64,000 nt of DNA from Naegleria gruberi (lineage: Eukaryota): NCBI GenBank assembly GCA_000004985.1, contig GG738867.1. One strand, written 5' to 3'. The stretch's first letter is position 1. Every line of letters starts with the position of its first letter. A program made the translations under genes and the position numbers. Shown here one piece after another: positions 1,208-58,564 of this stretch. The notes under the pieces are model-generated. The model saw only the letters and a list, made by a program, of their open reading frames with translations. It was not told the DNA's origin and did not search any database.

Positions 1208-4200
1208 TTGCAAAACAAAATGGAAGACATGTACCTGTGGGATGAAGATTTGATGGAGGCTCTTCATCAATCCAATATCGATCATTTTGCCACTAATAAA
1301 TCATCAAGCAACTCCTCCAAGCACAACAAGAACAGCACAGATTGTATTGAATTCTCCAAATTAGAGTTTGGTAATTTCGATGATCGAGAAATGACCACCT
1401 TCCGAAGGGTAACCACTCGACACTCCTTTCATGATGTTCATTCGACAAGTTTCAAGGTATATTGGAAGGAAGGTGGTGATTTTTCAGTCTTCTTTCTGAT
1501 TAAACCTCATCATCAGTTTTGGATTGAAATCAATAGAAACATTATACGGAAGGTAATCATTGTTGATAATGAAAGTATTGCCATTGTACTGGATCAGGCT
1601 CCAAGTGTTCACAGAAAACGTGATGGTGATGATAACAAGACAAGAATGGCTGCTCCAACTGATAAAACTACTCAGGCACATAGTTTCTGGTTGCACAATT
1701 TCAATGTGACAAAATCTCTGCTCCTCTCTGGTATTCGATATGAGCATGTGGAAATTCTCAAAAGTAAGACTTCAAAGACACACTATTTATATGGAACAAA
1801 ATCATGTACAGCTCTAACAATGAAGGATGTGAATGGTATGGATTGGAAGGGCCAATTGAATATTGAGCTTGGTATTCCATTTCATACCATGTATTTATTA
1901 TTGTGCTTGAATTGTAAAGTTCCTGGCTTACTTGCTAGTTATGAAAGATTATCAGAGATTAAGCAACTCTTTAATGAATTGAAAGATAGTAACAACAACT
2001 CATATGACTTGGTGAATGTTGCTCTGGAAAAGTGTTTACAACACGAAGGGTTCTTTCCTTCAGAGTTTACTACTCTCTTCAAAAAACATTCTCACAAACG
2101 CCAACACAAAAGCTTTGTAAAGGTTGATGACAATATGTTTGAAATCAGAAAGGTAATGATCACACCAACAGGAATCAAGTATTTCCCAAAAATCCTCGAA
2201 TCTGGAAATCGAGTCTTGAGAAAATACAAGCAATACGAAGATAGATTTCTCAGAGTGACATTTTGTGATGAGGGTCTTAATAGAGTTAGCGCTGAAAAGG
2301 TCACAAACATGCACCCTCGATTGGAGGAATTCCTTAATAATGGTTTTACTATTGGAAATAGACATTATGAGATGTTGGCCTATTCGAATAGCCAACTCAG
2401 AAGTCATAGCTGTTGGTTTTTGAATACGGAAGGAATTCGTGAACTGTCAGTGAGTTCTATCATTGAAGGTCTTGGTGACTTTTCTGATATTAAAGTAATG
2501 GCCAAATATGCTGCAAGAATTGGTCAATGCTTTTCCAATACTTTCAATGGTATCAAATCAGAATTTATAGAAGTAAATGATATTGTCTATCGAGAAATTG
2601 AAAGAAATGGGGACATTAAGGAAAACGTTCTCAATGACGGATGTGGCCGAATGTCTGTAAGTTTTGCAGAACAGGTTAGCAAGCAAATGAAAATTAGAAT
2701 TCATGGCAAAGCCTACATTCCATCAGCTTTACAATTCAGATTGGGTGGCTATAAAGGGGTAGTAGTACAAGATAAGGATGTTGCTGATATATTTGGAAAG
2801 GATCTGGTTCTCACTAAGAGTCAAAACAAGTTCAAGGACGAAAAGAGTGATGAATTTGAGATGGTAGCCTTCTCGAAACGTCCAAAGTTTTCCAGTCTCA
2901 ATAGACAAATTATTATTCTACTTTCCTCCAATGGCTTGCCTGACAGTGCCTTGATGAAATTTGTAGATAGAGAGATAGAGACTTGGAGGTCAAGAACAAC
3001 AAAAAAACTGAGTATTAGAAAGTTACTGAGAAAGGTGTGGGAAAATGTGGTTGGTTCGAATATCAAAAAGGTCATTTCATCAGAGTATTTAGATCTCAAA
3101 GCTCAGGTCCTTGCAAGTCAGGTCAAAGGAATGTCACAACAACATGTTGAATACTTTTACAATGTTGATCCATTACTCTGTACTCTATGCGATAAGATTT
3201 TGATTAACCAATTCTCCAGCTTGAAAACAAATCTTCCAGTTGATAAGTGTTCACTATTGATGGGTGTTGTTGATTTTTATGGAGTGCTAGAAGATGACGA
3301 GGTTTTTGTACAACTTTCTTCATTTGAGAGCTATGAAAGAGATTTATATGATCCTGGCTCGTATGCTGAAGGTGGAATAGTGAGTGGAAATGTATTTGTT
3401 ACAAGGAATCCTTGTCTTCACCCAGGAGATGTTAGAAAGTTTAAAGCTGTCAGTGATGACAGAATTAATGTTCTCAAACATTTGAAAGATGTTATTGTAT
3501 TCAGTCAAAAATCAAAACAATCCCAGGCTAGCAAGATGAGTGGAGGCGACTTGGATGGGGACCTTTTCATGGTGTGTTGGGATCCAGAGCTTTTAAATTT
3601 CACAGAACATAAACCAATGAAACACACTCAACTGAAACCTTTGGAAAAGAATGATGGTTTTGATTATAAGGCAATCAGAGATTTTCTTAAGGAGTATGTT
3701 GTGAATGACAATTTGGGAGTAGTTGCTTTTATGCATATGGAACACTATGATCAATCTTCAAAGGGAGCACTCGATCAAAACTGTTTGGATCTTGCTGATT
3801 ATCACTCTCACCAAGTTGATTATGCCAAGACTGGTGTTAGAAAGGCCTTACCAATGGAGCTGGTATCAGAGTATAGACCTCACTATATGCCAAAAAGTTT
3901 CATGAAGAAGACTTATCATTCAACCAAAATTATAGGAAAGAGTAAGTTATTGAGAATTTGATTTTTCTAACCACACAACAGTTCATGATAAGGTTGAGGA
4001 ATTTATGAAATCAAACAAAAAATTGAAAGAGAAGGTTAAAGAATCCGATCCCTTCCATCCACATTTTAAAACTTTGGATCTATTATTTGTAAAATACAAA
4101 CCTCTACAAATGCTTTTCATAGAGCATGACCAATTAAAGGAAGTGAAGAATGCCAATGAGGACTCTTTAATAACCAAAGATATTGCGGATATTTACAATT

Positions 4201-23689: not shown

Positions 23690-25306
23690 ATGAGCAAACA
23701 AAATAATCATGAAGAGGATCTTCAACAACCTTCCTCTAATTCCTCTTCAATAGAGAATTCAATACAATCATCATCGCCACAACAACAACAACAAGTTGCT
23801 ACTTCGAATATTGCCACTCTAACAATAGAAGTTCATGAAAATCCAAGTGAAACTCAAGAAATAACAATCCCTCCAACAACAACAACAACAATAACCACTA
23901 CCGACACAAATAACAACATCAATAATACAATTGGAATGTCTCGAATTGGCTCTATCAATGCCATCTCCACAATCAACACCAAACAACAACAACCAACATC
24001 CCCAACTACTAATATTGCCTCCCCCACAGTCGTCAAACCAATTGAAACAAAGGAATGGCAAGTAGACTTTTCCAAATTCCCCATTGTTGATACCGATAGA
24101 ATGAAGCAATCATCAAAGAAAAAGTTGAGAAAGAAGGTTTCCCAATTCTATGAAAAACAAAATGAGCTTGTTGAAGGATATGCTGAATTATATACCAATA
24201 CAGTGACTAAGGAATTTCTGAAGGATTCCGATGAAGAAGGAGAGGAAGGTGATTCCTTTTTAAAAGATACCAGTGCTGATGATGAAAAGAGAGAAGCAGC
24301 TGAGGCCCTTGAGAGGAAGGAGAGTAGATATGCTTCATTTTGTATCCAAGCCAGTTTTTGGGTCAATGTCTTGCTCTTATTCTTGAAAGTTTCTGCCAGT
24401 TTGCTTTCCTTGTCCCTTTCTGTTATTACATCAACCATTGACTCGATTTTGGATTTGGTCTCTGGACTCATTCTCTTCTATACAAACCTTTTGAAGAAAA
24501 AGAAGAGTGATCTTCACTTGTATCCAGCTGGTAAGGAAAGATTGGAACCATTAGGTTTTATCATCTTTGCCACCTGTATGTCAACAGCCAGTTTACAAAT
24601 TATTAAGGAAGGTGTTGTTGGTATCATTACAGGTCTAGTTACTGGCGACCCGTATCTCCCAACAGATTCTCAAAACATTGTAGAATGGATTATGAAACCA
24701 GAGTTACTCAATGGAGAAATGGAATGGATGCTTGGTATCAAAATTCCTTCCACTTTCAAAATGGTATTTTACATTTATGGTCTTTTTGTATTGTTTATTG
24801 CTATTGTGTTGAAATCTGTCCTCTATGTTTTGTGTATCAGAGCTAAGGATTCTCCATCATGTGAAGCTTATGCCTTCGATCACAGAAATGATGTATTGAG
24901 CAATACCTTTTTAATTATATCTCTCTTTGTTTCTCAGTGGGTTTGGTGGTTGGATCCTTTTGGTGCTACTCTGTTATCCATTTATATTATTTATGGTTGG
25001 GTTGGTGAGTCGATGGAACATGTGACTAAATTAGTTGGTTTGACTGCCGAATCAGAGTTTATCAAAAAGTTGACCTTTATTGCTGTAAATCAGAGTGAAA
25101 AGATCATGAAGGTTGAAACTGTTACTGCCTGGTACAGTGGTATGAATATTATTGCTGAGATTCACGTTGTACTTCCACCTAACATGTCCCTTAGAGAAGC
25201 CCATAATATTGGTGAGGATTTGCAAATGAAGATAGAGTCTGTCCCAGAGGTGGAACGATGTTTCGTACATTTGGATTTCAATGATAACCATAAAATAAGT
25301 AAATAA
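23690..25306 (+). CDS. Cation diffusion facilitator (CDF/MTP) family metal transporter
   Basis: TM core with CDF motifs (SLLSLSLSVITSTIDSILDLVSGLIL...LYPAGKERLEPLGFIIFA). The C-terminal cytoplasmic domain ends HLDFNDNHK. The N-terminal 200 aa are low complexity (poly-Q, poly-T). Confidence 0.75.
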   Translation: MSKQNNHEEDLQQPSSNSSSIENSIQSSSPQQQQQVATSNIATLTIEVHENPSETQEITIPPTTTTTITTTDTNNNINNTIGMSRIGSINAISTINTKQQQPTSPTTNIASPTVVKPIETKEWQVDFSKFPIVDTDRMKQSSKKKLRKKVSQFYEKQNELVEGYAELYTNTVTKEFLKDSDEEGEEGDSFLKDTSADDEKREAAEALERKESRYASFCIQASFWVNVLLLFLKVSASLLSLSLSVITSTIDSILDLVSGLILFYTNLLKKKKSDLHLYPAGKERLEPLGFIIFATCMSTASLQIIKEGVVGIITGLVTGDPYLPTDSQNIVEWIMKPELLNGEMEWMLGIKIPSTFKMVFYIYGLFVLFIAIVLKSVLYVLCIRAKDSPSCEAYAFDHRNDVLSNTFLIISLFVSQWVWWLDPFGATLLSIYIIYGWVGESMEHVTKLVGLTAESEFIKKLTFIAVNQSEKIMKVETVTAWYSGMNIIAEIHVVLPPNMSLREAHNIGEDLQMKIESVPEVERCFVHLDFNDNHKISK

Positions 25307-25452: not shown

Positions 25453-27870
25453 TTAAGTGTTATAATTTCCTCTTCCAACAATTTTATTTCTTTCCAATAG
25501 TTCTTTCACTTGTTTGTTTTTTTCAAATGTAATTTTATCCACTTCCTCAGCTAGTTGAGAGTAACTTTTCAATGGCATGATTTTCTTAAATTCTTCAATT
25601 TCATTGGTAATGTTCAATGTTAAATCTTTAATTTCACCTCGCAAGAATTTCAAAATATTCTCAATTATTAAAAGGTGTAAATAACAATTCAATATTTTGG
25701 TTGAATCTCTTTGAATCATTGTAATGATACATCTGATCAATAGTTCATTAATTCCAACTTCTGGATCGATAGAATGATTGATCAGTTTTTCAATTGCATA
25801 ATGTAATTTCATTTCTCCTTCAGTTGTTGTTATTACAGTATAGAAATACTTTCCATATCCACTAAAGTATGGATAGCCATTATTGTACTTTGAAACATCT
25901 GGATCAGTTACAAATTTTTCATCCAGTTGTAATGGACAATTGGTCAGTAATTTCAAAAAAATACATCCCAAAGAGAAAATATCAGATGAAGTGGTTATTT
26001 GTCCAATATTGTGAGCTAATCTATCGTTATCACCATATTTAAACATGTTGTCAGTGTAATTGTCATGTGAAACCTCAGGAGACATGTAGGCATACTTTCC
26101 ACGTGCAATTGTAATTGAGTGACCTATCTTAATAACTCTTGATGTTTCAAAATCAATAATTTTAAAAGTATCTCCAATTTTAACAATATTTTGCGGATCT
26201 AAATCTCTGTGAGCAATATTATGATCATGAATTGACTTGACTGATCTCAATACTTTGGTGAATATTTCAAACAATTCTATTAATTTGTCCTTGGTTAAGA
26301 AGGTGTCTCGATAAATGTCATTATTTCTGTAAATATAATGTGACAATGATTCCTCTCCAAGCTCCATCACTGAATACAAATGATTTTGAATAACAGCACA
26401 TTCAAAACACTTGATCTTTCCTTCAATATCTGTTCTTTTCAATAAATTAATTGTGTAGTTGGTAGCAGCTTCAGAACCCTCTGGATCATATTTGAATTTC
26501 ATGGCTCGTAAAGATTTTGTTTTTTTGTGAAATACTTTGAAAACGACGCCTTCTGCTCCATATCCTAAAACTGAAATAAAGTCATATTCCATTTTGAAAT
26601 GAATATAGTAATAATTGAGTGCTTTGAAAATTTTTGCTAAATCTCCTCGTAATTCATTGTATTTACACAATATTTGTTTGTAATTCTCAAATGTTTGCTC
26701 ACTTTCAAACCATTTAATGACAAAACTCATAATTTCCATAATTTCCTTTGTTGAATAAAAAGAGGTTTTGAAATTACTTGAAACATTTTCCACAACATTC
26801 TTCAAATCCTTCATGTCTGTTGTTTGGGAAGGATTATCTTTAAGAAAATTATCCAATCTGAAACAAAATAAATGAAAGTTAGCACTTTCTGAAATAGGAA
26901 TATTGTTGGACAATTCTTCGTGGTTCATTTGTTTCAATATTTGGAAGGTGATTAATTTTTCAACAAGTAGTGGTGAATAGGTTTTTTGGTTGAAATAATT
27001 AAATAGTGCGCTTTTGGATTTTGGATTAAATAGTGAACTTAACTCAATAGCAAAATATAAATCCTTTTCTTCCAAATACTTTTTTGAGTATAGTTCAATA
27101 ATATTTGTTGATAGCATTCTATGTAAATCAACACAATCCTCAATGCTTTTGGTAATAGAAGGAGAGAATTCTTTTGCAATCTTGGTATTGTGTTTGAATA
27201 GGGAGAAAATGAAAGGAATATCTCCTTTAAATGAGTTATCAACATGTTCAAGTACCAATCTATTTTGTTTAACAGCTTCCAATACTATTTCTCTATCTTT
27301 TTTAAATGATTCATCTGCACGTTGAAGTGCATTTCCATTTTGTTTAACAGCTTCCAATACAAATTCTCTATCCTTTTTAAAAGATTCGTCAACATATTCA
27401 AGTACCTTTCCATTTTGTTTAACAACATTCAAAACAAAATTTCTATCTTTTTTCAATGATTGATCAGCAAAGTCAAACAAAAATTCATGCAACACAACAA
27501 CTTGCAATAAAAATTGTCTATCTTTTTTCAATGATTCATCCGCATATTTAAGTAACAGTCCATATTGAACTGCAGCATTCCAATCACTATCAGTTTCCTT
27601 TCCTTTAACAGCTTCCAATATTATCTCTCTATCTTTTCTAAGTGATTCATCAGCACATTGAAGTGCCAATCCATTTTGTTTAACAGCTTCCAATACAATT
27701 TCTCTATCTTTTTTGAATGATTCATCTGCATATGTAAGTAACAATCCATTTTGTTTAACAATATTCAATACAAATTCTCTATCTTTTGTACGCTTCAAAA
27801 CTCCCAATACGATATCTTGTAGTTGTTGTTCTTGTTGTTCTGTATTATTGTTATCATTGCTAGCTATCAT
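25453..27870 (-). CDS. Protein kinase-like protein with N-terminal about 9x 31-residue tandem repeats (consensus ADESFKKDREIVLEAVKQNGxAL)
   Basis: Kinase subdomains are VLGYGAEGVVFK, RAMKF, HRDLDPQNIV, DFETS and YMSPEV. Catalytic-loop K is replaced by D and DFG is DFE. The repeat array covers about 26940..27790. Confidence 0.7.
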   Translation of the reverse strand: MIASNDNNNTEQQEQQLQDIVLGVLKRTKDREFVLNIVKQNGLLLTYADESFKKDREIVLEAVKQNGLALQCADESLRKDREIILEAVKGKETDSDWNAAVQYGLLLKYADESLKKDRQFLLQVVVLHEFLFDFADQSLKKDRNFVLNVVKQNGKVLEYVDESFKKDREFVLEAVKQNGNALQRADESFKKDREIVLEAVKQNRLVLEHVDNSFKGDIPFIFSLFKHNTKIAKEFSPSITKSIEDCVDLHRMLSTNIIELYSKKYLEEKDLYFAIELSSLFNPKSKSALFNYFNQKTYSPLLVEKLITFQILKQMNHEELSNNIPISESANFHLFCFRLDNFLKDNPSQTTDMKDLKNVVENVSSNFKTSFYSTKEIMEIMSFVIKWFESEQTFENYKQILCKYNELRGDLAKIFKALNYYYIHFKMEYDFISVLGYGAEGVVFKVFHKKTKSLRAMKFKYDPEGSEAATNYTINLLKRTDIEGKIKCFECAVIQNHLYSVMELGEESLSHYIYRNNDIYRDTFLTKDKLIELFEIFTKVLRSVKSIHDHNIAHRDLDPQNIVKIGDTFKIIDFETSRVIKIGHSITIARGKYAYMSPEVSHDNYTDNMFKYGDNDRLAHNIGQITTSSDIFSLGCIFLKLLTNCPLQLDEKFVTDPDVSKYNNGYPYFSGYGKYFYTVITTTEGEMKLHYAIEKLINHSIDPEVGINELLIRCIITMIQRDSTKILNCYLHLLIIENILKFLRGEIKDLTLNITNEIEEFKKIMPLKSYSQLAEEVDKITFEKNKQVKELLERNKIVGRGNYNT
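26940..27790 (-). repeat. Coding tandem repeat, about 93-nt period (31 aa), about 9 copies
   Basis: Repeated ...ADESFKKDREIVLEAVKQNG... units are visible in the translation. The antisense ORF 27014..27325 is a by-product. Confidence 0.7.
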
Positions 27871-28841: not shown

Positions 28842-30662
28842 ATGAACCCGACACAACCGAGCAGCAATCCCAATCTCCTGCAGGTACAAGGCTCTGCAAA
28901 CCATAATGTCAGTGGTGCTAGTTTAAGCTTTGATGATGTTGGTAGTCATCATAGCGGATTTGGAGGCATTGGTTTCAATGGAGAGTCAAGCCAGGTAGAT
29001 CCCTCCGTTACACAAAAGAGTCGTTCTAGTTCCAATAATACGAATAATCCTTTGGTTATATTTGAGAGGAGTTTTTCGATATTCATCTCGGCGTTAAGGA
29101 ATACTCTAGAATCAACAACATACATATATTCTGTTCTGCTGTATATTTGGATAATTTTGCAAACATTTTCTTTATCTTCCTATTATGAATACAGGTGGGG
29201 AAATATTGCAGGATGGATAATGAGAGGAATAGCAGCAATATGGACATTAGGGTTTGATTTTATGCCATATAATGTAAGTATATAGTGATTAGAGGTGTAA
29301 TGATTAATATTGTGTTTCCTTAATGATTGTTACTACTCAATTTACTGGTTCTATTTTAACAACTTCATCAACCCTAAAATCCTTTTCATCCCAATGAATA
29401 ATTATTAACTTGCAATCTCTCAACAGGGTCATATTGTTATAATATCTCTGTCTTTGGCCCTTAACATTGTAACATTATTAATGTTCTTATATTGCAAATC
29501 TGCGCTTGGAAATGGCAGTAAACATTGGGATAGACTAAAACGATACACAAGAAAGATGTGTGTCATTCATCTCGTATTTTCTGTTCCGATGATGTATTGC
29601 TATGGAGTGTTTTGGCACTGTGATTATACGACACTGAAATTGTTCGCCTTCTCTGAAGTTGAATGTTGGTCTCCTTCTAATAGTGGCCTTGCATCAATAT
29701 CAATGTTGGGAGCATTAATGACTTTCATTATTACATTAATATCAAGTTTGGTTCTTGTAGATATCAATCCAGCAAGTAAGGGAATATTTGTGAGTTTTAC
29801 TCCATTCTTTTTTGCTTCTCTAGTTGCTTCGAATACTCTTTTTGCATTCCTTCAACAAGCTATTCCTCCTTACATTTACTATGCTGTCCCATCATTATTT
29901 ATTGTGAAACAGTTATTGTTGTGTGTAGCGCTTGTTCAGAGATATCCATTCTTTAGAAGAGTGGAAAATTCAGTCATGTTTGGGGTATTGGTAGGCTCTG
30001 GAATGTGGGCAGTAGCAAATCTGGTTGTCTTCTCTGTAAATAGTAATGTTCCTTCAATTGATCTGGAAACATCAGGACTTGCAATAATGGGTGTTGGTTT
30101 CTTGTTGCCCATCACTGGGATCGTTCTCGGTTTTGTTGGTATTGAAATTGCCACTCGTGTCATTGTTTCAAAAGTAAAACATGATCTCGATAACTTAATG
30201 AGCAGTCCTCAAGGTGAACTGGAAGAAATGAAGTATTCTCATTTATTTATTCAGTGGGCCATGAAAGATCATTCCCTTGCAGAGTACGTGCGGTATCTTA
30301 TTAATGAAGTTTCTTCAACCAAGGTGGATCTCTCATTCATCGATTTGATAACGAGTGCTTGTTATATGCACTATTTGGTGGAAGATTTTCAAACCAGTGC
30401 ACTCTTGTTGCTTAAAAGATCTGAAGAAATGTTTGATTCTGTTTGGTTCATTGACAGATTAGAACTCCAAATAAGAAAGAGAGAAATCACTAGCCACATT
30501 CATGCTGAAAGCGCTGAAGTGTCTGAGTACTTGACAAAAGTTGTAGCTAAACAAGACACAATTCTAATTCTCCAAAGATCATTCTGGAAAATTGTCCTAT
30601 CAGAAGAAATATCTGAATTGGCGATGGAACAAGCAGGAAGAAAGATATGGTCAACTCTTTGA
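28842..30662 (+). CDS. Multi-pass membrane protein, 2 exons: 28842..~29272, 29427..30659; possibly the N-terminal part of the downstream PAS-cyclase gene
   Basis: Exon 1 ends ...FMPYN followed by GTAAGT. A 154-nt intron runs to TCTCAACAG|GGTCATATT, phase 0. At least 8 predicted TM helices are followed by a soluble about 170-aa region. The stop overlaps the start of the next ORF in another frame. Coordinates are +/-1. Confidence 0.5.
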
Positions 30663-33346
30663 ATGAATACAGATATATTCAAAAAAATTTAGAGCTCTAT
30701 GGAACTCTTGATACTGAGAGGTTTGAATCCATTAAAGGAAGATTGGCTTGGTATGCCAGTATGATAAATGAAATGGTGAAAACAGTACAATCTAATTATT
30801 TCACAGATGAAATGAAAAATGATATGCTTGGAACTAAGAGTGAAGTGTTTCTTCCTTCTCTTTCTGCTGACGGTAGCTATACGTTCAGCACAAAGAATAT
30901 GACATATTCAGAATTGATGCATTTGATCGGTTCTGTTACATCAGTATTAGCCAATAGTACTTTAGAAACTTTTAGGAATACCACAAACTTTGAGTACATC
31001 TTTTTGTGGAAGAACAGGTTACTCTTTATTGATTATTTCGAGGTCTTTTGCGATATTTTGACTGCAAGAAACTTTGAACATTTGAATGCATGGTCCAACA
31101 TTATTATTGGTGTAATGTCAACCCTGATAGGTCTATTTACCATATATTTGATCGTGTTTTGGGTAATTGTTGGTGGCTATATGAAGGCATCATCCAAGCT
31201 ATTCAAGCTTTACAAGTTTTTACCAAAGGATGAAGTAGGAAAGCTTTTCCATGAATTGGAGAAAAAGACAAGCCAGCTTAATCAAAGAATTGAGTTTAGA
31301 AAGTCCAATCTATTATCTCCTTCAAACGTTATGATCTACTTTTTGGCTTTAGTCTTCTTACTAACTTATATTTCAGTTGGATTGATATTTTTTGAGGCCC
31401 TTTACAACTCTGTTTACAACAGACAAGCAATTTCCAAAGTTCAACATGGTACAGAAATTACGCACGATTTGACCAAGATCACCTTTGGTTCATTCCAATC
31501 CTTATTTGATGATACTGATTATCTTCAATATACACACGATGAATTGTATGAATTTGCAAAGCGGTACAATACCATGGACGAGTACACTGATTTCAGATAC
31601 GGAACAGAGGATGCAGGTTATTATAATTTAATTGGTATGACATCTTCTATAGATACACAAGTTGAGCACCGTGGAACAGATGCTAAATGCAAGAATTACA
31701 CTTTGATTAATTTTGATATTTCACAAATAGAATGCATGAGCATGGATGAATTGATTAATGCAAATGCTTACTATTTAGCTAAACAAGTAGAAGATATTTA
31801 CAAGAAGAAATATTCAGAAGAACAATTGTTGGCAACTTTTTGGAAGAATTACTTGGTATACATTCAGACAAGAAAAAAGAGTTGGGGAATCATGCTTGAA
31901 TCTGTTGATTATTTCACCTCTAGAATTAATCAGAGAATAATAAGTGGTTTGGCTTGTGCCTTGCCTGCTCTGGTTGCTCTGTTAGCGTATATGGCTTTTA
32001 GGACTTATAGTAGAATTAATAAGGAAAGATCTCTCTTCTTATTAATGCTCTTCCAAGTTCCTTGTGATGTTCTAGATAATCTAGATCCAATCAAGAATTA
32101 CATTTTTAATAGAAGCTTTGATTCTGGAAAGAAGAATAAGCAATTGTCATTGGATGGAAGAAGTGAGGTTAAGGCAGTTTGTGATGCTGCTGTGGATGGA
32201 ATGATTCTTTGTACCTCTGTTGGTGTGATTGAAATCTTTAACACTGCCTCGGAAACAATGTTTGGATACAAGTCCACAGATGTACTTGGATTGTCTCTTA
32301 CCAAACTGTTTGAAAAGGAAGGCAGAGAAAAGGTAGAGAATATTCTGGCCAGATTGAGACAATCTAATGAAACAATGGGAGAAACTCTAGAATTGGTTTG
32401 TTTAAGAAAAAATGACAGAAAGTTCCCAACAAGAGTTTCCTTATCAGTTAGTTTGCTAAGCACTTCCAATAACATGAAAAAATCTGTCATTACATGCTTT
32501 ATCAAGGATATCACCACCGAATTGAAACACAATAATTTGATTAAGGAAGAAAAGATGAAGTCTGAAGCACTCTTGTTGAATATTCTCCCTGAACCAGTGG
32601 CCAATAGACTGAAGGCAGGTGAAACCAATATATATGAAAACTTTAAGGATGTTACCTGTTTCTTTAGCGACATTGTTGGTTTTACAACCATGTCATCAAC
32701 CATGGAACCAAATCAAGTGGTTGCCATGTTGAACGAAATTGTCAATCAATTTGATATCCTTTGTGACTCGTATGATTTAGAAAAAATCAAAACTATTGGT
32801 GATGCATACTTTTGTTGTGGTGGTTTACACAATTGTATGCAAAGTGATCACCCTGAGAAAGTTGTTAGATTTGCCATTGATACATTGGGTGTCATTTATA
32901 TTTACAATACTCAAAACAATACTACTGTGAATATTCGTGTTGGTGTACATACTGGCAGTGTAGTAGCTGGTGTTTTAGGTATAAAGAAGTTTGCTTATGA
33001 TTTGTGGGGAGATGCTGTAAATACTGCCTCTCGTATGGAATCAACCGGTTTACCTGGTAGAGTTCAAATATCAAGAGACACTTATGAAAGAGTGCACGAT
33101 TTGTTCGAATTTGATTTGAGAGAAATTGAAGTTAAAGGAAAAGGTAAAATGAAGACATATGTGGTAAAGGAAAAACATCATCAAAATCCAAACAAGGAAT
33201 CTCCAGAAATTACCAGTACCACTATTCTAAGAAACAGACTGGGTGAATCAAGTTCTGCAGCAAATTTATTCCAAGCTCAACAAAATATTGACCATGAAAA
33301 TTCAGTTCCAAATTTACTTCAATTAACCATTCCAGATAAATATTAA
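30647..33346 (+). CDS. Class III nucleotidyl (adenylyl/guanylyl) cyclase with TM segments and a PAS domain
   Basis: Three TM helices; a PAS-like segment (VCDAAVDGMILCTSVGVIEIFNTASETMFGYKSTDVLGLSLTKLF); then a cyclase domain with FFSDIVGFTTMSS, KIKTIGDAYFCCGGL, IRVGVHTGSVVAGVLG and WGDAVNTASRMES. Confidence 0.8.
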   Translation: MVNSLNEYRYIQKNLELYGTLDTERFESIKGRLAWYASMINEMVKTVQSNYFTDEMKNDMLGTKSEVFLPSLSADGSYTFSTKNMTYSELMHLIGSVTSVLANSTLETFRNTTNFEYIFLWKNRLLFIDYFEVFCDILTARNFEHLNAWSNIIIGVMSTLIGLFTIYLIVFWVIVGGYMKASSKLFKLYKFLPKDEVGKLFHELEKKTSQLNQRIEFRKSNLLSPSNVMIYFLALVFLLTYISVGLIFFEALYNSVYNRQAISKVQHGTEITHDLTKITFGSFQSLFDDTDYLQYTHDELYEFAKRYNTMDEYTDFRYGTEDAGYYNLIGMTSSIDTQVEHRGTDAKCKNYTLINFDISQIECMSMDELINANAYYLAKQVEDIYKKKYSEEQLLATFWKNYLVYIQTRKKSWGIMLESVDYFTSRINQRIISGLACALPALVALLAYMAFRTYSRINKERSLFLLMLFQVPCDVLDNLDPIKNYIFNRSFDSGKKNKQLSLDGRSEVKAVCDAAVDGMILCTSVGVIEIFNTASETMFGYKSTDVLGLSLTKLFEKEGREKVENILARLRQSNETMGETLELVCLRKNDRKFPTRVSLSVSLLSTSNNMKKSVITCFIKDITTELKHNNLIKEEKMKSEALLLNILPEPVANRLKAGETNIYENFKDVTCFFSDIVGFTTMSSTMEPNQVVAMLNEIVNQFDILCDSYDLEKIKTIGDAYFCCGGLHNCMQSDHPEKVVRFAIDTLGVIYIYNTQNNTTVNIRVGVHTGSVVAGVLGIKKFAYDLWGDAVNTASRMESTGLPGRVQISRDTYERVHDLFEFDLREIEVKGKGKMKTYVVKEKHHQNPNKESPEITSTTILRNRLGESSSAANLFQAQQNIDHENSVPNLLQLTIPDKY

Positions 33347-34727: not shown

Positions 34728-37121
34728 ATGTCTCAAGAAGATCAAGAGGTTATCGTGATTGTAGAAGACCAAGAACAACAGAAAGATTCTCTTCCTTTCG
34801 ATCAAGCAAGAATAGAACAAACTAAACTATTCGGAACTAATCAAACTAATTCCTTGTTTCCAACCAATGATCAACCAAAAACAAGATTCGTCCTCTCCAT
34901 TGATGGTGGAGGTGTCAGAGGAACCCTCGCAGGTTCAATCCTTGCCACTCTCGAAAAGGAAGTCATCCAAGAAATTGCCAAACATTTTGCAGAGCTAGGA
35001 GAAAAACCACCAACCAATAACTTTAGTTTAACTTCATGTTTCGATTTGGTAGTCGGTACATCAACAGGTGGAATCATTGCATTAGGTGCTGGTATTTCTA
35101 ATAATGGAGGACCTTTCGATTTTAAATTTTCTGCCTCTGATTTGGGAGATTTATATACGAATAATAGTTCACAGATATTTAGTAAGGAATTTAAACATGG
35201 AAAATTGAGAGAATTTTTGATTTCTTCGAGATATGATCCAACTGGATTGGAAATTGTCATGGAAAAGTATTTTGGAAAGGCCAAGTTGAGTGATTTGGTT
35301 ATTCCAGTGATGGTAACTTCATATGATTTAAATAGACAAGAATTGGTTGTGTTTGATAGTGAAATGGCTAAACCTAAAGGAGAATTGACTATGAGACAGT
35401 TACCTTCTGATTATTATTTGAAAGATATTGCACTTGCCACTTCAGCAGCTCCAACTTTCTTTCCAATTAGAACGATTGAGTCAATTACAGATCCAAGTGA
35501 TAAACATGATTATATTGATGCTGCAGTAACTGCTAATAATCCAACCATGTTGGCTTATTTGAAAGCAAAGAAAATGTATCCAGGCGATTCCATTAATATT
35601 GTTTCATTGGGTTGTGGTTATGAAGGTATTGATAGACCTTCATTGGAAGGAAAGATTGAATGGGCCAAGACAATTTCCTCTCTCATGATTCAAGGAGCAT
35701 CTAATTTGACTGAATATTTAATGCAACAAATGGTAGATTTGTCACCTTTGGATAAATATTGGAGAATTGATGTGAAATTGGATCAGGCAGCTTTAGATTT
35801 GACATCTGAAGATTATTTGAAGAGTTTAAAGATATTGGGATCAAGTTTGAGAACCAACGATGGTAATGCCTATAAGAATATTAGAGATACCATTATTGAC
35901 TTTTATAGAAGTAAGAGTTTTTATACTTGTTTCAAGTTGATTGAAAAAGTTGAAAGTCAATTGATGAGTCCAAAGTACAGAAAGAATGATCAGGTTAGAA
36001 TTGACCTTTCAGATGTTGGATTGACTCCAATTGCATTATGGGAAGTGGTTCACTATTTGAAAAATCAAGTTGACTATGAAAAAATTTACAAAATTGATTT
36101 GAGTGGACAAACTATAACTGTTGAAATATTAGAACAATTGCTCCATTTGAGAACTGAAGAAGCTCCTGAAAAATTGAAAAAGAAACATTGTTCTGTTGAG
36201 AAACTAACTGTCAAGACTCAAATCTTGGAAGAGAAATGTTTAATTCACAAATTAATCATGAGAGATTGTCAATTGAGTGGTCAAGTCCTTGCATGGCTTG
36301 TCAATAAGAGTAAATTGTTTGATGTCTTGGATTTGGGAGGAAGTGTCAAATTGAGTGAATGTGATTCTGGATTTTTGGATTCTCTCTGTCAATTGTCTGA
36401 AAGAGGAAATGTCATTCTAGAAGGAAAGGCCTATTGGGTGATTGGTAATCATTACAGATACTTTGAGAAATTCGATCATTGCAGAAAATCTTACAAGAAA
36501 GGAAGTGAATTAGGCGATGTTGATTGTGAATATTTGGATTGCTTAATGGGATATTTCACAGATAATTTACAAGATCGAAATGAGCAACTTCATCAAATAT
36601 TGAAGAATAGAAATGAAAGAGTTGGATATTTACTTGGCTTGGCAATTGAACAACGAAACCTTTCGAATAATGAACAAGCTCAACAATCAAGAAGTTCAAT
36701 CGATTCTCCATCAAGTAGCTCACCATCCAGTTCATCTCCTATGAAAATTCCACAAGAAAACGATCCACTACCACCTGAATTTGTCGAATATGAAATTGAG
36801 AATCATCATGCCCTATGTGTCGATTGGTATGTCCGAGTTTCTCAATCCATATCCACAAAAGATTCTTCACAACCATGGATTGATAAGGCAAAACTTCGAC
36901 TTTCAAAAGGAAAGACACTTCTTCCAGCTGCATCCAGTCTTGGCTTGGTGTTGTATCCACAAGGTGCAAATACCACAATTGGAGAAGCTATTCTTTCAAA
37001 AAAGGAAAGAAAAGATCAGCAAAAAAAGGAAAAACAAGAAGAAAAGGAAAGAGAAAAAGAAAGAAAACGATTGGAAAAAATGGAAAAGAAGGAATTAAAG
37101 CAAAAGATGAAGAATCAATAG
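34728..37121 (+). CDS. Patatin-like phospholipase domain protein with long C-terminal extension and K/E-rich tail
   Basis: Oxyanion-hole DGGGVRG, nucleophile elbow GTSTGG, and Asp in DAAVTANNP. The C-terminus is low-complexity (KKEKQEEKEREKERK). Confidence 0.7.
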   Translation: MSQEDQEVIVIVEDQEQQKDSLPFDQARIEQTKLFGTNQTNSLFPTNDQPKTRFVLSIDGGGVRGTLAGSILATLEKEVIQEIAKHFAELGEKPPTNNFSLTSCFDLVVGTSTGGIIALGAGISNNGGPFDFKFSASDLGDLYTNNSSQIFSKEFKHGKLREFLISSRYDPTGLEIVMEKYFGKAKLSDLVIPVMVTSYDLNRQELVVFDSEMAKPKGELTMRQLPSDYYLKDIALATSAAPTFFPIRTIESITDPSDKHDYIDAAVTANNPTMLAYLKAKKMYPGDSINIVSLGCGYEGIDRPSLEGKIEWAKTISSLMIQGASNLTEYLMQQMVDLSPLDKYWRIDVKLDQAALDLTSEDYLKSLKILGSSLRTNDGNAYKNIRDTIIDFYRSKSFYTCFKLIEKVESQLMSPKYRKNDQVRIDLSDVGLTPIALWEVVHYLKNQVDYEKIYKIDLSGQTITVEILEQLLHLRTEEAPEKLKKKHCSVEKLTVKTQILEEKCLIHKLIMRDCQLSGQVLAWLVNKSKLFDVLDLGGSVKLSECDSGFLDSLCQLSERGNVILEGKAYWVIGNHYRYFEKFDHCRKSYKKGSELGDVDCEYLDCLMGYFTDNLQDRNEQLHQILKNRNERVGYLLGLAIEQRNLSNNEQAQQSRSSIDSPSSSSPSSSSPMKIPQENDPLPPEFVEYEIENHHALCVDWYVRVSQSISTKDSSQPWIDKAKLRLSKGKTLLPAASSLGLVLYPQGANTTIGEAILSKKERKDQQKKEKQEEKEREKERKRLEKMEKKELKQKMKNQ

Positions 37122-55549: not shown

Positions 55550-58156
55550 TCATTTAAGTAATAACTTTAATTTTCTAATTTCTTCCTCAAGTTCCTTGAT
55601 TCTCATATTTTCCTTTTTAAGTTCCTTATTTTCTTGTTTTAATTTTTCATTTTCCTCGACTATTTGAGGAATCTCCTTCAGTTCAGATATTTCACTATAC
55701 TTATCTTCCATTTCCTTTTGAATTAATTCAATACTTTCTGAACTATTATCTTTCAAATAATTAATAACTCTTAAAAGGATTGTTCTGTGAGTGTAGCACA
55801 TCAATCTCTTATTGGGATCTTGTTGAATCATGGTAATTAAGCATCGTGTTAAGATTGTATTCACACCAAAATTAGGATCTATATATTGATCAATTGTTTT
55901 TTGGATGGCGTGGTGTAATTTCTTTTCTCTCAATAACTCCGTCAATACTGTATGAAAATAAACACCATCCCACACAAAATATCGATACTGCTCGGCATAT
56001 TTCTGTACATTCGCATCTTGTAAAAACTTTTTATCCAACATTAATGAACTATTTGTCAATAATTTCAGTAAAATACATCCCATTGAGAAAATATCACTCA
56101 TAGTTGAAATATTCCCAATATTTTGAACAAGTTTGCCATCATCGAGTAATTCCTCTCTATAACTGGCTTGAGAGACTTCAGGAGACATGTAACTTAACTT
56201 TCCAATAGTCAATGTGATAGATTTTCCAGTCTTGGCCACTTTTGCGATGTCAAAGTCAATAATTTTGTATTGATCTGAAACTTTGACAATATTCTTTGGA
56301 TCTAAATCTCGGTGAATAATATTATGGTCATGAATGGTTTGCACCGAGTAGAGTATTTTTGTGAATATTGTTAATATTTCAATTAAATAATCTTTGGTAA
56401 TAGACTTTTGTGTATAAACCTCACTATTTCTATTAATGTAATCAGACAAAGATTCCTCTCCTATTTCCATAACTGTATATAGATGATTACTAATTTGATT
56501 AGCTTCATAACATTTAATTTTACCCTCAATATCACTTTTAAGAAAGTTGATTCTCTCTTGGGCAGGAGCTACGTCTAAATATTCATAACTAATTTTAAAA
56601 GCAACATATTGATTAGTCTCCTTATTGAAAGCTTTAAATACAACTCCTTCAGCTCCATATCCTAAAACTGATACCAGCTCATAAACAATATTTTTTTGGT
56701 CTTTTGAGTAATTGTAATAATCTTTGATTATTCGAATGATTTTTAAATATTCATTACTACATTCGTTATATTTGGCTATTAACTCTCTAGGGTTATCAAA
56801 AATAGTCAAATCTGATGTCCACTCTTCATAAAAATGTAATATTGGTTCAACCTCTTTATCTGAATAATATACTTCAAATTTAGAGGCAATATCATCAACA
56901 ACACTCTTAATATTTGAAAAATAGGTTGAGTTCAATTTTGATTGATATTCTTCAAAAAACTTATATAATTTAAAGCAAAATAAATAGTAATCAAAAGTCT
57001 TGAATATGTGGGGTTTAGAAGATGGATTAATTGAGCTGATATTTTTCAATATTTGAATAATGATTAACTTTTCAATAAACTTTGGAGAATAATTAGATCT
57101 AAAATTAAGAAAGTTTGGTTTCTCATTTGGAAATATGTCTTTAAAGAACAAATAACAGAATAGATCATTTTCCTCACAGAATTTCTTGTTATAATATTCA
57201 ACAATACCTTTGGATAGTTTTTGATTAATAGAATTGGTATCAACTTTCTTGAGGAATTTGTATTTAGCGGTTTTAGATGAATACTTGTTGGGTAGTGAGC
57301 TGATGATCTTCATATCTTTTTTCAATGATTCATCTGCATATTCGAGTACATATCCATCTTGTTTAACAGCTTTCAATATAAATTCTCTATCTTTTTTAAA
57401 TGATTCATCTGCATATTCAAATGCTCTTCCATGTTGTTTAACAGCTTCCAATATAAATTCTCTATCTTTTTTAAATGATTCATCTGCATATTCAAGTGTA
57501 TATCCATCTTGTTTAACAGCTTCCAATATAAATTTTCTATCTTTTTTCAATGATTCATCTGCATATTCAACATATTTCCATTTTGTTTAACAGCTTCCAA
57601 TATAATTTCTCTATCTTTTTTCAATGATTCATCTGCATATTCAAATGTACTTCCATTTTGTTTAACAGCTTCCAATACAATTTCTCTATCTTTTTTCAAT
57701 GATTCATCTGCATATTCAAGTGCATATCCATTTTGTTTAACAGCTTTCAATACAATTTCTCTATCTTTTTTCAATGATTCATCTGCATATTCAAGTGTAT
57801 ATCCATTTTGTTTAACAGCTTTCAATACAATTTCTCTATCTTTTTTCAATGATTCATCTGCATATTCAAGTGCATATCCATATTGTTTAACAGCTTTCAA
57901 TATAAATTCTCTATCTTTTTTCAATGATTCATCTGCATATTCAAATGCTATATCCATCTTGTTTAACAGCTTTCAATATAAATTCTCTATCTTTTTTCAA
58001 TGATTCATTTGCATATTTAAGTGCATATCCACCATTTTGTTTAACAGCTTCCAATACAATTTCTCTATCTTTTTTAAATGATTCATCTGCATAGTAAAAT
58101 GCTAATCCATTTTTTTAAACAGCTTCCAATACAGACTGACGAGTATTCAAAACCAT
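55550..58156 (-). CDS. Protein kinase-like paralog with N-terminal 31-aa tandem repeat array; repeat region carries frame breaks
   Basis: Kinase motifs are VLGYGAEGVVFK, VAFKI, HRDLDPKNIV, DFDIAK and YMSPEV, with a C-terminal coiled coil. Upstream repeats (YADESLKKDREIVLKAVKQNGYALE)n continue in ORF 57547..57957 (other frame) and further degenerate copies reach about 58140, including an in-frame TAA. The N-terminal boundary is uncertain. Confidence 0.6.
57230..58140 (-). repeat. Near-identical 93-nt coding tandem repeats (about 9.5 copies) with indels
   Basis: Repeated unit ...ttgtttaacagcttccaatacaatttctctatcttttttcaatgattcatctgcatattcaag.... ORF 57234..57590 (+) is its antisense translation. 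Confidence 0.7.
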
Positions 58157-58564
58157 TTCTTCCAGACAATGTGTGACAAGCTTCTGCTTCAATCAATATT
58201 TTTTTGAATTTTCAAACGTGATGGCGATAAAATTTTGATGACCACAAGCCTACAAACTCCTCAACATTCTTTTTAATTTTTTATCGAAAGAAAAGAAGGA
58301 AGGAATACAAAGTTGTGATTCTCACTCCAGGAATTACCAAGAATTAATACACTATTGGATGAAAGGAAAAAACAGAAAATTCTCTTGCTAATCATTTCCC
58401 TACCACAGAATTCTTTGTCCTGTGCAGTTCGTTGTTCCATCACAGAAGCAAATAAAAGGCAGAAAATTATGAAAAAAATGCAAACAACAACTTGAAAATA
58501 TTTTGATAGGAAGAATTTGCACTTGGTGCGAAAAGATAAGACAATAAGAAGAGCTGAATAGAAA

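What the first reader, a model, noticed from the sequence alone, without database searches (positions are those of the whole stretch)
25453..27870. Kinase-like gene with a 9-copy 31-residue N-terminal repeat array and non-canonical catalytic motifs
The kinase fold is clear (GxGxxG, VAIK-like, APE-like). The catalytic loop reads HRDLDPQN, so the K of HRDLKPxN is replaced by D, and DFG reads DFE. The paralog at 55550..58156 shows the same substitutions (HRDLDPKN, DFD). The N-terminal array (ADESFKKDREIVLEAVKQNGxAL)n resembles DUF4116-type repeats, and I do not know this pairing with a kinase as a described architecture. It could be a pseudokinase family or a kinase with an unusual mechanism.
Basis: partly seen in the sequence, partly recalled or inferred. 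Interest (0 to 1): 0.65.

Follow-up and report, generated by a model that had tools for sequence, protein, structure and literature searches.

The report
Naegleria kinase family with swapped catalytic lysine
This is an intact Naegleria gruberi gene from a species-specific family of 15 repeat-plus-kinase proteins in which a normally invariant catalytic lysine has become aspartate and a lysine has appeared at the residue that normally touches it, so the enzymes may have moved the lysine rather than lost it.

Summary
The window is Naegleria gruberi, and 25453..27870(-) is an intact 805-aa gene identical to an NCBI "predicted protein". It encodes a DUF4116 repeat array, a helical middle domain, a protein-kinase domain and a short coiled-coil tail. 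The catalytic loop reads HRDLDPQN and DFG reads DFE.

Corrections:
- The repeat unit is 25 aa (75 nt), not 31. There are about 8 units, not 9.
- The paralog at 55550..58156 has an in-frame TAA and two frameshifts in its repeat array.
- DUF4116 plus kinase is already recorded for many Naegleria proteins in public databases.

New findings:
- All 15 N. gruberi paralogs carry Asp at the catalytic-loop Lys position (PKA K168).
- All 15 also carry Lys where kinases have the P+1-loop Thr (PKA T201, "GT" to "GK").
- All 7 related domains with the canonical Lys keep Thr, as do all 6 outgroup domains (Thr or Ser).
- In PKA and MARK that Thr hydrogen-bonds the Lys and the catalytic Asp.
- The clade is monophyletic, so the swap happened once and was then kept.
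- The DFG-Gly change to D/E is older and family-wide.

My best reading is a relocated catalytic lysine, analogous to WNK. A pseudokinase is the main rival. This copy has also lost a family-conserved αC Glu (Tyr472) and the R280 equivalent (Ile726).

The parts
25453..27870 (-). Complete CDS (805 aa plus stop) of the N. gruberi DUF4116-kinase gene
   Evidence: ORF. It is 100% identical over full length to NCBI/UniRef protein P0001.
27172..27813 (-). DUF4116 repeat array, aa 20-233. About 8 units of 25 aa (75 nt), with three short helices per unit.
   Evidence: Pfam PF13475 E=7.7e-68. TRF period 75. Unit parsing. AF2 model pLDDT 88.2, pTM 0.75. No solved structural relative was found; the best Foldseek E-value is 0.097.
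26596..27171 (-). Helical middle domain, aa 234-425, conserved only within the Naegleria family
   Evidence: Aligned across paralogs and N. lovaniensis P0026. AF2 predicts helices, with pLDDT mostly 80-88 over model residues 121-170. The profile search of 1.84 billion proteins covers this region only in Naegleria and unnamed environmental hits.
25636..26595 (-). Protein-kinase domain, aa 426-745
   Evidence: Pfam Pkinase 88.2 bits. Foldseek probability 1.00 to CDK2 structures. Residue table.
26548..26565 (-). Gly-rich loop G436-Y-G-A-E-G441
   Evidence: The three Gly are kept in 14 of 15 clade members.
26497..26499 (-). Beta3 lysine K458 (PKA K72 equivalent)
   Evidence: Invariant in the family.
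26455..26457 (-). Tyr472 at the position where 12 of 15 paralogs have a conserved alphaC Glu
26188..26211 (-). Catalytic loop H554-R-D-L-D558-P-Q-N561. D558 (codon GAT) replaces the catalytic-loop Lys (PKA K168).
26146..26154 (-). D573-F-E575 in place of DFG
26074..26103 (-). P+1 loop R-G-K592-Y-A-Y-M-S-P-E599. K592 (codon AAG, 26095..26097) sits at the PKA T201 position.
   Evidence: Ungapped spacing to the S/APE motif. Clade-specific position analysis. Codons.
25693..25695 (-). Ile726 at the position of the universally conserved Arg (PKA R280). The other 14 clade members have Arg.
25456..25635 (-). C-terminal tail, aa 746-805, with a short coiled-coil-like segment that is longer in the paralogs
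   Evidence: Sequence. The coiled-coil assignment is inferred from sequence pattern only.
55550..57550 (-). Paralog: continuous ORF with 3 DUF4116 units, the middle domain, the kinase domain (HRDLDPKN 56291..56314, DFD 56249..56257, GK loop 56177..56206) and a coiled coil
57313..58131 (-). Paralog's 75-nt repeat array (10.9 copies, 91% matches). It is interrupted by a -1 frameshift near 57560-57575, a +1 frameshift near 57940-57950 and an in-frame TAA at 58115..58117.
   Evidence: TRF. Sequence. Three-frame translation. Repeat spacings of 74 and 76 nt. JGI model P0010 bridges the first shift with a 35-nt GT-AG 'intron'.

Best explanation
The gene encodes one member of a Naegleria-specific, tandemly expanded family. 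Its members combine an N-terminal DUF4116 alpha-solenoid, a family-specific helical domain, a eukaryotic protein-kinase domain and a C-terminal coiled coil. The solenoid is probably a docking or scaffolding module.

In the N. gruberi sub-clade (15 gene models) one ancestral event exchanged two residues that touch each other in canonical kinases. The catalytic-loop Lys (PKA K168) became Asp, and the P+1-loop Thr (PKA T201) became Lys.

Most likely mechanism (inferred, not shown): Lys592, reaching in from the P+1 loop, is held by a salt bridge to Asp558. It supplies the positive charge next to the catalytic Asp556 and the ATP gamma-phosphate that K168 normally supplies. The domain would then still bind ATP/Mg and probably still transfer phosphate. 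This would be a relocated catalytic lysine, as in WNK kinases, which relocate a different lysine.

The DFG Gly-to-Asp/Glu change is older. It is shared with Lys-type relatives, so it is not part of the swap.

This particular copy has also lost a family-conserved alphaC Glu (Tyr472) and the R280-equivalent Arg (Ile726). It may therefore be a weaker enzyme than its paralogs.
For: Shown:
- Fifteen of 15 D-type domains have D at the 168 position and K at the 201 position. The 7 family domains with K168 have T201. The 6 outgroup domains have T or S.
- Among about 330 aligned positions, only 4 separate the clade cleanly from both relatives and outgroup. Two of them are this pair.
- The clade is monophyletic in 100/100 NJ bootstraps.
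- The spacing from K592 to SPE is identical to that from T201 to APE, with no gaps.
- The T201 equivalent hydrogen-bonds the catalytic Asp and the K168 equivalent in MARK, as proposed for PKA (PMC2604893). K168 binds the gamma-phosphate (PMC9704751).
- The Gly-loop, beta3 Lys, HRD Asp, Asn171, DFG Asp, APE Glu and alphaF Asp are kept in 14 of 15 paralogs despite about 40-70% identity.
- The one relaxed copy, P0011 domain 1, has lost several of these and has 19 unique substitutions at otherwise invariant sites, against 0-10 in the others.
- In 135 unrelated nearest kinases, loss of K168 goes with loss of T/S201. Non-T/S occurs in 5/11 loops without K168 against 6/231 with it (Fisher p=2.8e-5).
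- One unrelated environmental kinase, P0188 domain 2, pairs HRDLTPDN with GK.
- WNK is a precedent for an active kinase with a relocated lysine (PMC4718504).
Against: - No activity, ATP-binding or expression data exist.
- The swap is a single evolutionary event, so the perfect covariation counts as one observation.
- AF2 models the activation segment at pLDDT below 50, and the tools give no coordinates. The D558-K592 contact is therefore untested.
- Asp at 168 and Glu at DFG+2 add negative charge near the phosphates, which could abolish catalysis instead.
- The clade also acquired a Lys at the C-spine I174 column, which is unexplained.
- This copy lacks the family's alphaC Glu and the R280 Arg.
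Confidence: 0.45

Rival explanations
1. Conserved pseudokinase or scaffold. The D-type domains no longer transfer phosphate. The D558-K592 salt bridge merely locks the activation segment onto the catalytic loop in an active-like shape. The proteins would then signal by binding, through the DUF4116 solenoid and coiled coil, perhaps still binding nucleotide.
For: - K168 is described as critical for phosphotransfer (PMC9704751).
- Asp at that site together with D/E at DFG+2 is electrostatically unfavourable for binding the gamma-phosphate.
- Tandem pseudokinase-kinase arrangements have arisen in this family, in P0011 and P0123.
- The window gene itself lacks the family alphaC Glu and R280.
- No D was seen at this position in about 245 catalytic loops of the nearest unrelated kinases.
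Against: - All three residues whose loss defines a pseudokinase are kept (PMC4718504).
- The Gly-loop, Asn171 and ATP-pocket residues are kept in 14 of 15 copies, while the truly relaxed copy lost them.
- The HRD Arg and an activation-loop Thr ('SIT') remain conserved.
Confidence: 0.35
2. Altered chemistry or specificity. The two extra acidic residues (D558, E575) and K592 remodel the active site for a different metal stoichiometry, phosphate donor or acceptor, or for another transfer reaction.
For: - The active-site substitutions cluster around the phosphate and substrate site and are strictly conserved.
- T201 also contacts the substrate P-2 residue in PKA (PMC8970585), so K592 must change substrate contacts.
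Against: - Nothing specific points to a particular alternative reaction.
- The rest of the site is canonical for Ser/Thr phosphotransfer.
- The closest solved structures are ordinary CDK, TTK and CDPK kinases.
Confidence: 0.12
3. Decaying gene copies: the unusual motifs are simply degeneration on the way to pseudogenes.
For: - The second copy's repeat array has a stop codon and two frameshifts.
- The window gene has two private losses at conserved kinase positions.
Against: - Gene 1 is an 805-codon open frame in about 30% GC DNA.
- It has only 3 private changes at otherwise invariant clade positions.
- The D/K pair is identical in 15 paralogs.
- The paralog's 666-codon kinase ORF is intact, and its defects lie in a 91%-identical 75-nt array where assembly errors are plausible.
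Confidence: 0.05

Closest known systems
Canonical eukaryotic Ser/Thr protein kinases (Pfam PF00069; nearest solved structures are CDK2, TTK/Mps1 and CDPK)
   Same: - Bilobal ePK fold.
- Gly-rich loop, beta3 Lys, HRD Asp, Asn171, DFG Asp, S/APE Glu and alphaF Asp are present.
- It is an RD kinase with a conserved activation-loop Thr.
   Different: - Catalytic-loop Lys is Asp.
- P+1-loop Thr is Lys.
- DFG Gly is Glu.
- The column aligned with C-spine I174 is Lys.
- There are long inserts after APE and before alphaH.
- Identity to any solved kinase is only about 20%.
WNK ('with no lysine') kinases
   Same: WNKs are active kinases in which an invariant active-site Lys is missing from its canonical position and is supplied from a neighbouring element (PMC4718504). 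This is a 'works like' analogy.
   Different: - WNK relocates the beta3 Lys (K72) to strand beta2.
- Here the beta3 Lys is canonical. It is the catalytic-loop Lys (K168) that is replaced, and the candidate substitute comes from the P+1 loop.
- There is no sequence relationship beyond the ePK fold.
Protein-tyrosine kinases (HRDLAARN catalytic loop)
   Same: The K168 position is not Lys, and a basic residue elsewhere (Arg at +2) is thought to take over. This rests on my own knowledge of the family.
   Different: - Here the +2 residue is variable (Q/K/N).
- There is no AAR motif and no TK-type P+1 loop.
- Position 168 carries a negative charge rather than Ala.
Pseudokinases (Manning definition)
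   Same: It has non-canonical catalytic motifs and belongs to a lineage-specific expansion. One family member (P0011 domain 1) does qualify, with D184N.
   Different: The window gene and 13 other paralogs retain all three defining residues (beta3 Lys, HRD Asp, DFG Asp).
DUF4116 (Pfam PF13475) repeat proteins
   Same: It has the 25-aa ADESxKKDREhhLxAVKQNGxAL units. An alpha-solenoid is predicted here and by trRosetta in PMC8078820.
   Different: Most DUF4116 proteins in the search are bacterial or protist repeat-only proteins, or fusions to other domains. The function of the repeat is unknown, and no solved structure resembles it.

Membership tests
Eukaryotic protein kinase superfamily (Pkinase, PF00069) | Profile match above Pfam's gathering score | tested here: met
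   88.2 bits against a cut-off of 31.7, E=7.6e-25.
Eukaryotic protein kinase superfamily (Pkinase, PF00069) | Bilobal kinase fold | tested here: met
   AF2 model with pTM 0.71. Foldseek probability 1.00 and TM about 0.66 (target-normalised) to CDK2.
Eukaryotic protein kinase superfamily (Pkinase, PF00069) | Gly-rich loop GxGxxG and beta3 Lys | tested here: met
   G436/G438/G441 and K458.
Eukaryotic protein kinase superfamily (Pkinase, PF00069) | alphaC Glu pairing with the beta3 Lys | tested here: inconclusive
   The family's conserved Glu lies one residue N-terminal of the canonical column. This gene has Tyr472 there and Thr at the canonical column.
Eukaryotic protein kinase superfamily (Pkinase, PF00069) | Catalytic Asp (HRD), Asn171 and DFG Asp | tested here: met
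   D556, N561 and D573.
Eukaryotic protein kinase superfamily (Pkinase, PF00069) | Catalytic-loop Lys of Ser/Thr kinases (HRDLKxxN) | tested here: not met
   D558, and Asp in all 15 N. gruberi clade members.
Eukaryotic protein kinase superfamily (Pkinase, PF00069) | DFG Gly | tested here: not met
   E575. It is D or E in the whole Naegleria family, including the Lys-type relatives.
Eukaryotic protein kinase superfamily (Pkinase, PF00069) | APE Glu to R280 salt-bridge pair | tested here: not met
   E599 is present, but the Arg is Ile726 in this gene. The other 14 paralogs have Arg.
Eukaryotic protein kinase superfamily (Pkinase, PF00069) | Phosphotransfer activity | not testable with these tools
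   Needs biochemistry.
Pseudokinase (Manning/Hanks definition, PMC4718504) | Lacks at least one of the beta3 Lys, HRD Asp or DFG Asp | tested here: not met
   All three are present. Only paralog P0011 domain 1 (NFN) qualifies.
DUF4116 (PF13475) | Profile match above the gathering score, in tandem copies | tested here: met
   224.3 bits against 24.9, with 5 stretches of the 49-residue (two-unit) model. TRF period 75 nt.
WNK kinases | Beta3 Lys absent, with the Lys supplied from beta2 | tested here: not met
   The beta3 K458 is canonical. WNK is an analogy only.
Protein-tyrosine kinases | HRDLAARN/HRDLRAAN catalytic loop | tested here: not met
   The loop is HRDLDPQN, and the PK_Tyr_Ser-Thr score is much weaker than the Pkinase score.

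The most novel reading that the evidence does not exclude
The N. gruberi clade may be a second natural example, after WNK, of an active eukaryotic protein kinase that has relocated an invariant active-site lysine. Here it would be the catalytic-loop Lys168 equivalent, moved to the P+1 loop through a K168D/T201K charge swap. That would show the gamma-phosphate-contacting lysine is positionally plastic.
Probability: 0.35. Interest if true: 0.7.

Novelty: new variant of a known kind. Interest (0 to 1): 0.55.

Why it matters
The catalytic-loop lysine is one of the most invariant residues of Ser/Thr kinases. It is used implicitly when kinomes are annotated as active or dead. A 15-member family that replaces it with the opposite charge and installs a lysine at its hydrogen-bond partner is a natural double-mutant experiment.

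If these enzymes are active, K168's role can be supplied from the P+1 loop. That would matter for pseudokinase prediction rules, for kinase engineering and for reading protist kinomes. If they are inactive, they are a pseudokinase expansion that the standard three-residue definition would not flag.

Either outcome can be tested directly with a few recombinant domains and the D558K/K592T revertants.

The finding also gives DUF4116, a widespread repeat of unknown function, a defined signalling context in Naegleria.

Tried and rejected
- A third homologous-protein search used a 66-aa catalytic-segment query to look for HRDLD kinases elsewhere. The rarity of Asp at this site therefore rests only on the 135 nearest non-family kinases.
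- The look-up of encoding contigs has no record for the N. gruberi paralogs P0005 and P0003. I could not get paralog DNA or compute dN/dS among close copies. The two window copies are only about 45% identical, so I judged their synonymous sites too saturated and did not compute it.
- Environmental fragment P0128 looked like a possible ortholog of the window gene, but it is closest to P0003 at 70%.
- Foldseek of the DUF4116 model against the PDB gave no significant match. The best E-value was 0.097, to designed, ARM-like or HEAT-like repeats at TM below 0.4.
- The AF2 kinase model cannot test the D558-K592 contact. The activation segment has pLDDT below 50 and coordinates are not exposed.
- I rejected a real intron as the explanation for the paralog's frame change. 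The only GT-AG solution is 35 nt long and lies inside a repeat unit.
- I rejected the pseudokinase label under the standard definition (PMC4718504).
- Literature searches for DUF4116, the Naegleria kinome and Naegleria pseudokinases found no description of this family.
Full report
**1. What is there**

The window is Naegleria gruberi nuclear DNA. The 805-aa product of the ORF at 25453..27870(-) is 100% identical over its full length to an NCBI/UniRef "predicted protein [Naegleria gruberi]" on a 424-kb scaffold. Its neighbours are ordinary eukaryotic genes:
- an RdRP;
- a cation-efflux transporter;
- a PAS-adenylate/guanylate cyclase;
- a patatin;
- a Nup98-type nucleoporin.

Pfam finds DUF4116 (E=7.7e-68, five stretches of the 49-residue model) and Pkinase (88.2 bits against a cut-off of 31.7). 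phmmer alignments to solved CDK-like and CDPK structures place HRDLDPQN on HRDLKPQN/HRDLKPEN and DFE on DFG without gaps. An AF2 model of residues 214-768 (pLDDT 73, pTM 0.71) matches CDK2 with Foldseek probability 1.0. The motif observation is therefore real and correctly assigned.

**2. Corrections to the observation**

The repeat unit is 75 nt = 25 aa, not 31 (TRF). Parsing the protein gives six regular units at aa 48-209, one of which carries a 12-aa insertion. A degenerate unit flanks them on each side, so there are about 8 units.

AF2 models the array confidently (pLDDT 88.2, pTM 0.75) as a solenoid with three short helices per unit. No solved structure resembles it; the best Foldseek E-value is 0.097. 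An alpha-solenoid was also predicted for DUF4116 by trRosetta (PMC8078820).

The "paralog at 55550..58156" is not intact over that range:
- From the ATG at 58156 there is an in-frame TAA at 58115..58117.
- The 91%-identical 75-nt array changes frame twice, with repeat spacings of 76 and 74 nt.
- Only 55550..57550 is a continuous ORF.
- The public gene model (P0010) bridges one shift with a 35-nt GT-AG "intron".
- That model also removes 60 nt of conserved coding sequence as a second "intron".

I cannot tell whether these defects are real decay or assembly errors.

**3. The family**

Word-based and exhaustive profile searches find 15 N. gruberi gene models that share the middle domain and the kinase domain: P0001-P0011, P0121, P0122, P0124 and P0268. 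Five of them lie on one other scaffold, and two lie in this window. All 15 read H[RG]DLDPxN, and 14 of 15 read DF[ED].

More distant members have the canonical Lys (HRDLKPEN, HRDLKLxN, HRDIKTSN):
- N. lovaniensis P0026, P0123 (two domains) and P0125;
- N. gruberi P0127;
- unnamed environmental P0126 and P0130.

These also lack the DFG Gly and read DLD, DFD or DFE instead. The Gly-to-acid change is therefore old and family-wide, whereas the Lys-to-Asp change defines a sub-clade. That sub-clade is monophyletic in 100/100 NJ bootstraps.

Beyond these hits, the best matches among 1.84 billion representatives are generic kinases that match only the kinase core.

**4. The key new observation**

I looked for positions fixed in the Asp-type clade and fixed differently in both the Lys-type relatives and the outgroup. 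Four emerge out of about 330 aligned positions:
- 558 is D, against K elsewhere.
- 592 is K, against T (or S) elsewhere.
- 564 is K, against L/I/V elsewhere.
- 485 is K, against V/I elsewhere.

Position 592 is the Thr of the "GT" motif in the P+1 loop (PKA T201), and its spacing to S/APE is identical and ungapped. The association is perfect:
- 15/15 Asp-type domains have D168 with K201.
- 7/7 Lys-type family domains have K168 with T201.
- 6/6 outgroup domains have K168 with T or S at 201.

In MARK, as proposed for PKA, this Thr/Ser hydrogen-bonds the catalytic Asp and the catalytic-loop Lys (PMC2604893). That Lys binds the ATP gamma-phosphate and is critical for phosphotransfer (PMC9704751). 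The two residues that changed are therefore direct contacts, and the change swaps which one carries the amine.

Two further points bear on coupling:
- In the 135 nearest unrelated kinases, no catalytic loop has Asp at this site.
- In the same sample, loss of K168 is associated with loss of T/S201. Non-T/S occurs in 5/11 loops without K168 against 6/231 with it (Fisher p=2.8e-5). One of these, environmental protein P0188 domain 2, pairs HRDLTPDN with GK.

**5. Mechanism**

The best-supported explanation is that Lys592 substitutes spatially for the missing catalytic-loop Lys and is held by Asp558. The site would then keep a positive charge next to Asp556 and the gamma-phosphate. This is conceptually like WNK kinases, which are active with a relocated beta3 Lys (PMC4718504).

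Support for continued selection on the active site:
- The Gly-loop, beta3 Lys, HRD Arg and Asp, Asn171, DFG Asp, APE Glu and alphaF Asp are retained in 14 of 15 paralogs that are only about 40-70% identical.
- An activation-loop Thr ("SIT") is retained too.
- The single obviously relaxed domain, P0011 domain 1, is followed by a canonical second kinase domain. It has lost D184, a Gly-loop Gly and the alphaF Asp, and it carries 19 private substitutions at otherwise invariant sites, against 0-10 in the others.

Steps shown: positional homology, covariation, monophyly and retention of the other catalytic residues.

Steps inferred: the D558-K592 contact, its reach to the gamma-phosphate, and catalytic competence.

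Because the swap is a single event, the covariation is one evolutionary observation, however well it has been maintained.

**6. Rivals**

- A conserved pseudokinase or scaffold in which the salt bridge merely fixes the activation segment is nearly as plausible. Two extra acidic residues (D558, E575) near the phosphates are unfavourable for catalysis.
- The window gene has Tyr472 where 12 of 15 paralogs have a conserved alphaC Glu, and Ile726 where the other 14 have the R280-equivalent Arg. This copy may therefore be weaker than its siblings.
- By the standard three-residue definition it is not a pseudokinase (PMC4718504).
- Altered chemistry or specificity is possible but has no specific support.
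- Simple gene decay is unlikely for gene 1. It has an 805-codon ORF in about 30% GC DNA and only three private changes at invariant clade sites. Decay remains open for the N-terminus of the second copy.

**7. Domain context**

DUF4116 arrays occur in many other Naegleria kinases with canonical catalytic loops, and in the opposite domain order (P0038, P0057, P0103, P0044). In other organisms they are fused to helicase, lipase, PARP, protease, PPIase and BRCT domains, and they are abundant in bacteria and dinoflagellates. This fits a generic docking or scaffold role, which is an inference.

DUF4116 plus kinase is thus already recorded in databases. However, none of the four papers in the searched library that mention DUF4116 concerns Naegleria or kinases, and searches on the Naegleria kinome and Naegleria pseudokinases found no description of the family.

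**8. Verdict**

The gene is real and intact, and it is a member of a known superfamily carrying a conserved, previously undescribed active-site variant. I rate it a new variant of a known kind with moderate-to-good interest (0.55). The K168D/T201K swap is a sharp, cheaply testable hypothesis about how fixed the position of the catalytic-loop lysine really is.

Noticed in passing
window 57535..57574 and 56698..56762 (-): The public gene model for the second copy (P0010) uses a 35-nt GT-AG 'intron' to bridge a frameshift inside a repeat unit. It also uses a 60-nt in-frame 'intron' that deletes sequence homologous to conserved coding sequence in the paralogs. Both look like gene-model artefacts.
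   Followed up: partly
P0011 (N. gruberi, 861 aa) and P0123 (N. lovaniensis, 1080 aa): Two family members carry tandem kinase domains in which the first domain is degenerate (P0011: NFN, Gly-loop G to E, alphaF D to H; P0123: YRD and no DFG). The second domain is more canonical. This resembles a pseudokinase-kinase arrangement and appears to have arisen twice.
   Followed up: partly
window 26179..26181 (K564) and 26416..26418 (K485) (-): Besides the D558/K592 pair, the Asp-type clade has two further clade-specific lysines. One is at the column aligned with PKA C-spine I174 and one is in the alphaC-beta4 loop column (about L103). They are K in 15/15 clade members and aliphatic in all 13 other domains. 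Neither is explained.
   Followed up: no
window 26455..26460 (-): The family's conserved alphaC Glu lies one residue N-terminal of the column where CDK2 and generic kinases place the Lys-pairing Glu. Whether the family forms the canonical K-E salt bridge is unclear.
   Followed up: partly
P0188 (unnamed environmental protein, 515 aa): This unrelated tandem-kinase protein has a second domain that combines HRDLTPDN (no Lys168), DFS and 'GK' at the T201 position. It is an independent case of losing the loop Lys while gaining a P+1-loop Lys.
   Followed up: partly
Hits: DUF4116 arrays are fused to many unrelated domains (SNF2/DEAD helicase, lipase plus ankyrin, PARP, subtilase, PPIase, BRCT). They are frequent in bacteria (Saganbacteria, Parachlamydiaceae, Bacilli) and in dinoflagellates. 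A Symbiodiniaceae preprint lists DUF4116 in its figure key of annotations for virus-derived transferred sequences.
   Followed up: no
window 1208..3961(+), 23690..25306(+), 30647..33346(+), 34728..37121(+), 58565..61111(+): Neighbouring ORFs match RdRP, a cation-efflux (CDF) transporter, a PAS plus adenylate/guanylate cyclase, a patatin-like phospholipase and a Nup98-type FG nucleoporin that ends at the autopeptidase HF site. The 303-aa ORF at 58273..59184(-) runs antisense across the low-complexity start of the Nup98-type ORF, and I suspect it is spurious.
   Followed up: partly
window 57313..58131 versus 27219..27787 (-): The 75-nt repeats of the second copy are 91% identical to their consensus, against 74-84% in the first gene. 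This suggests recent unit amplification or gene conversion in the second copy's array.
   Followed up: no
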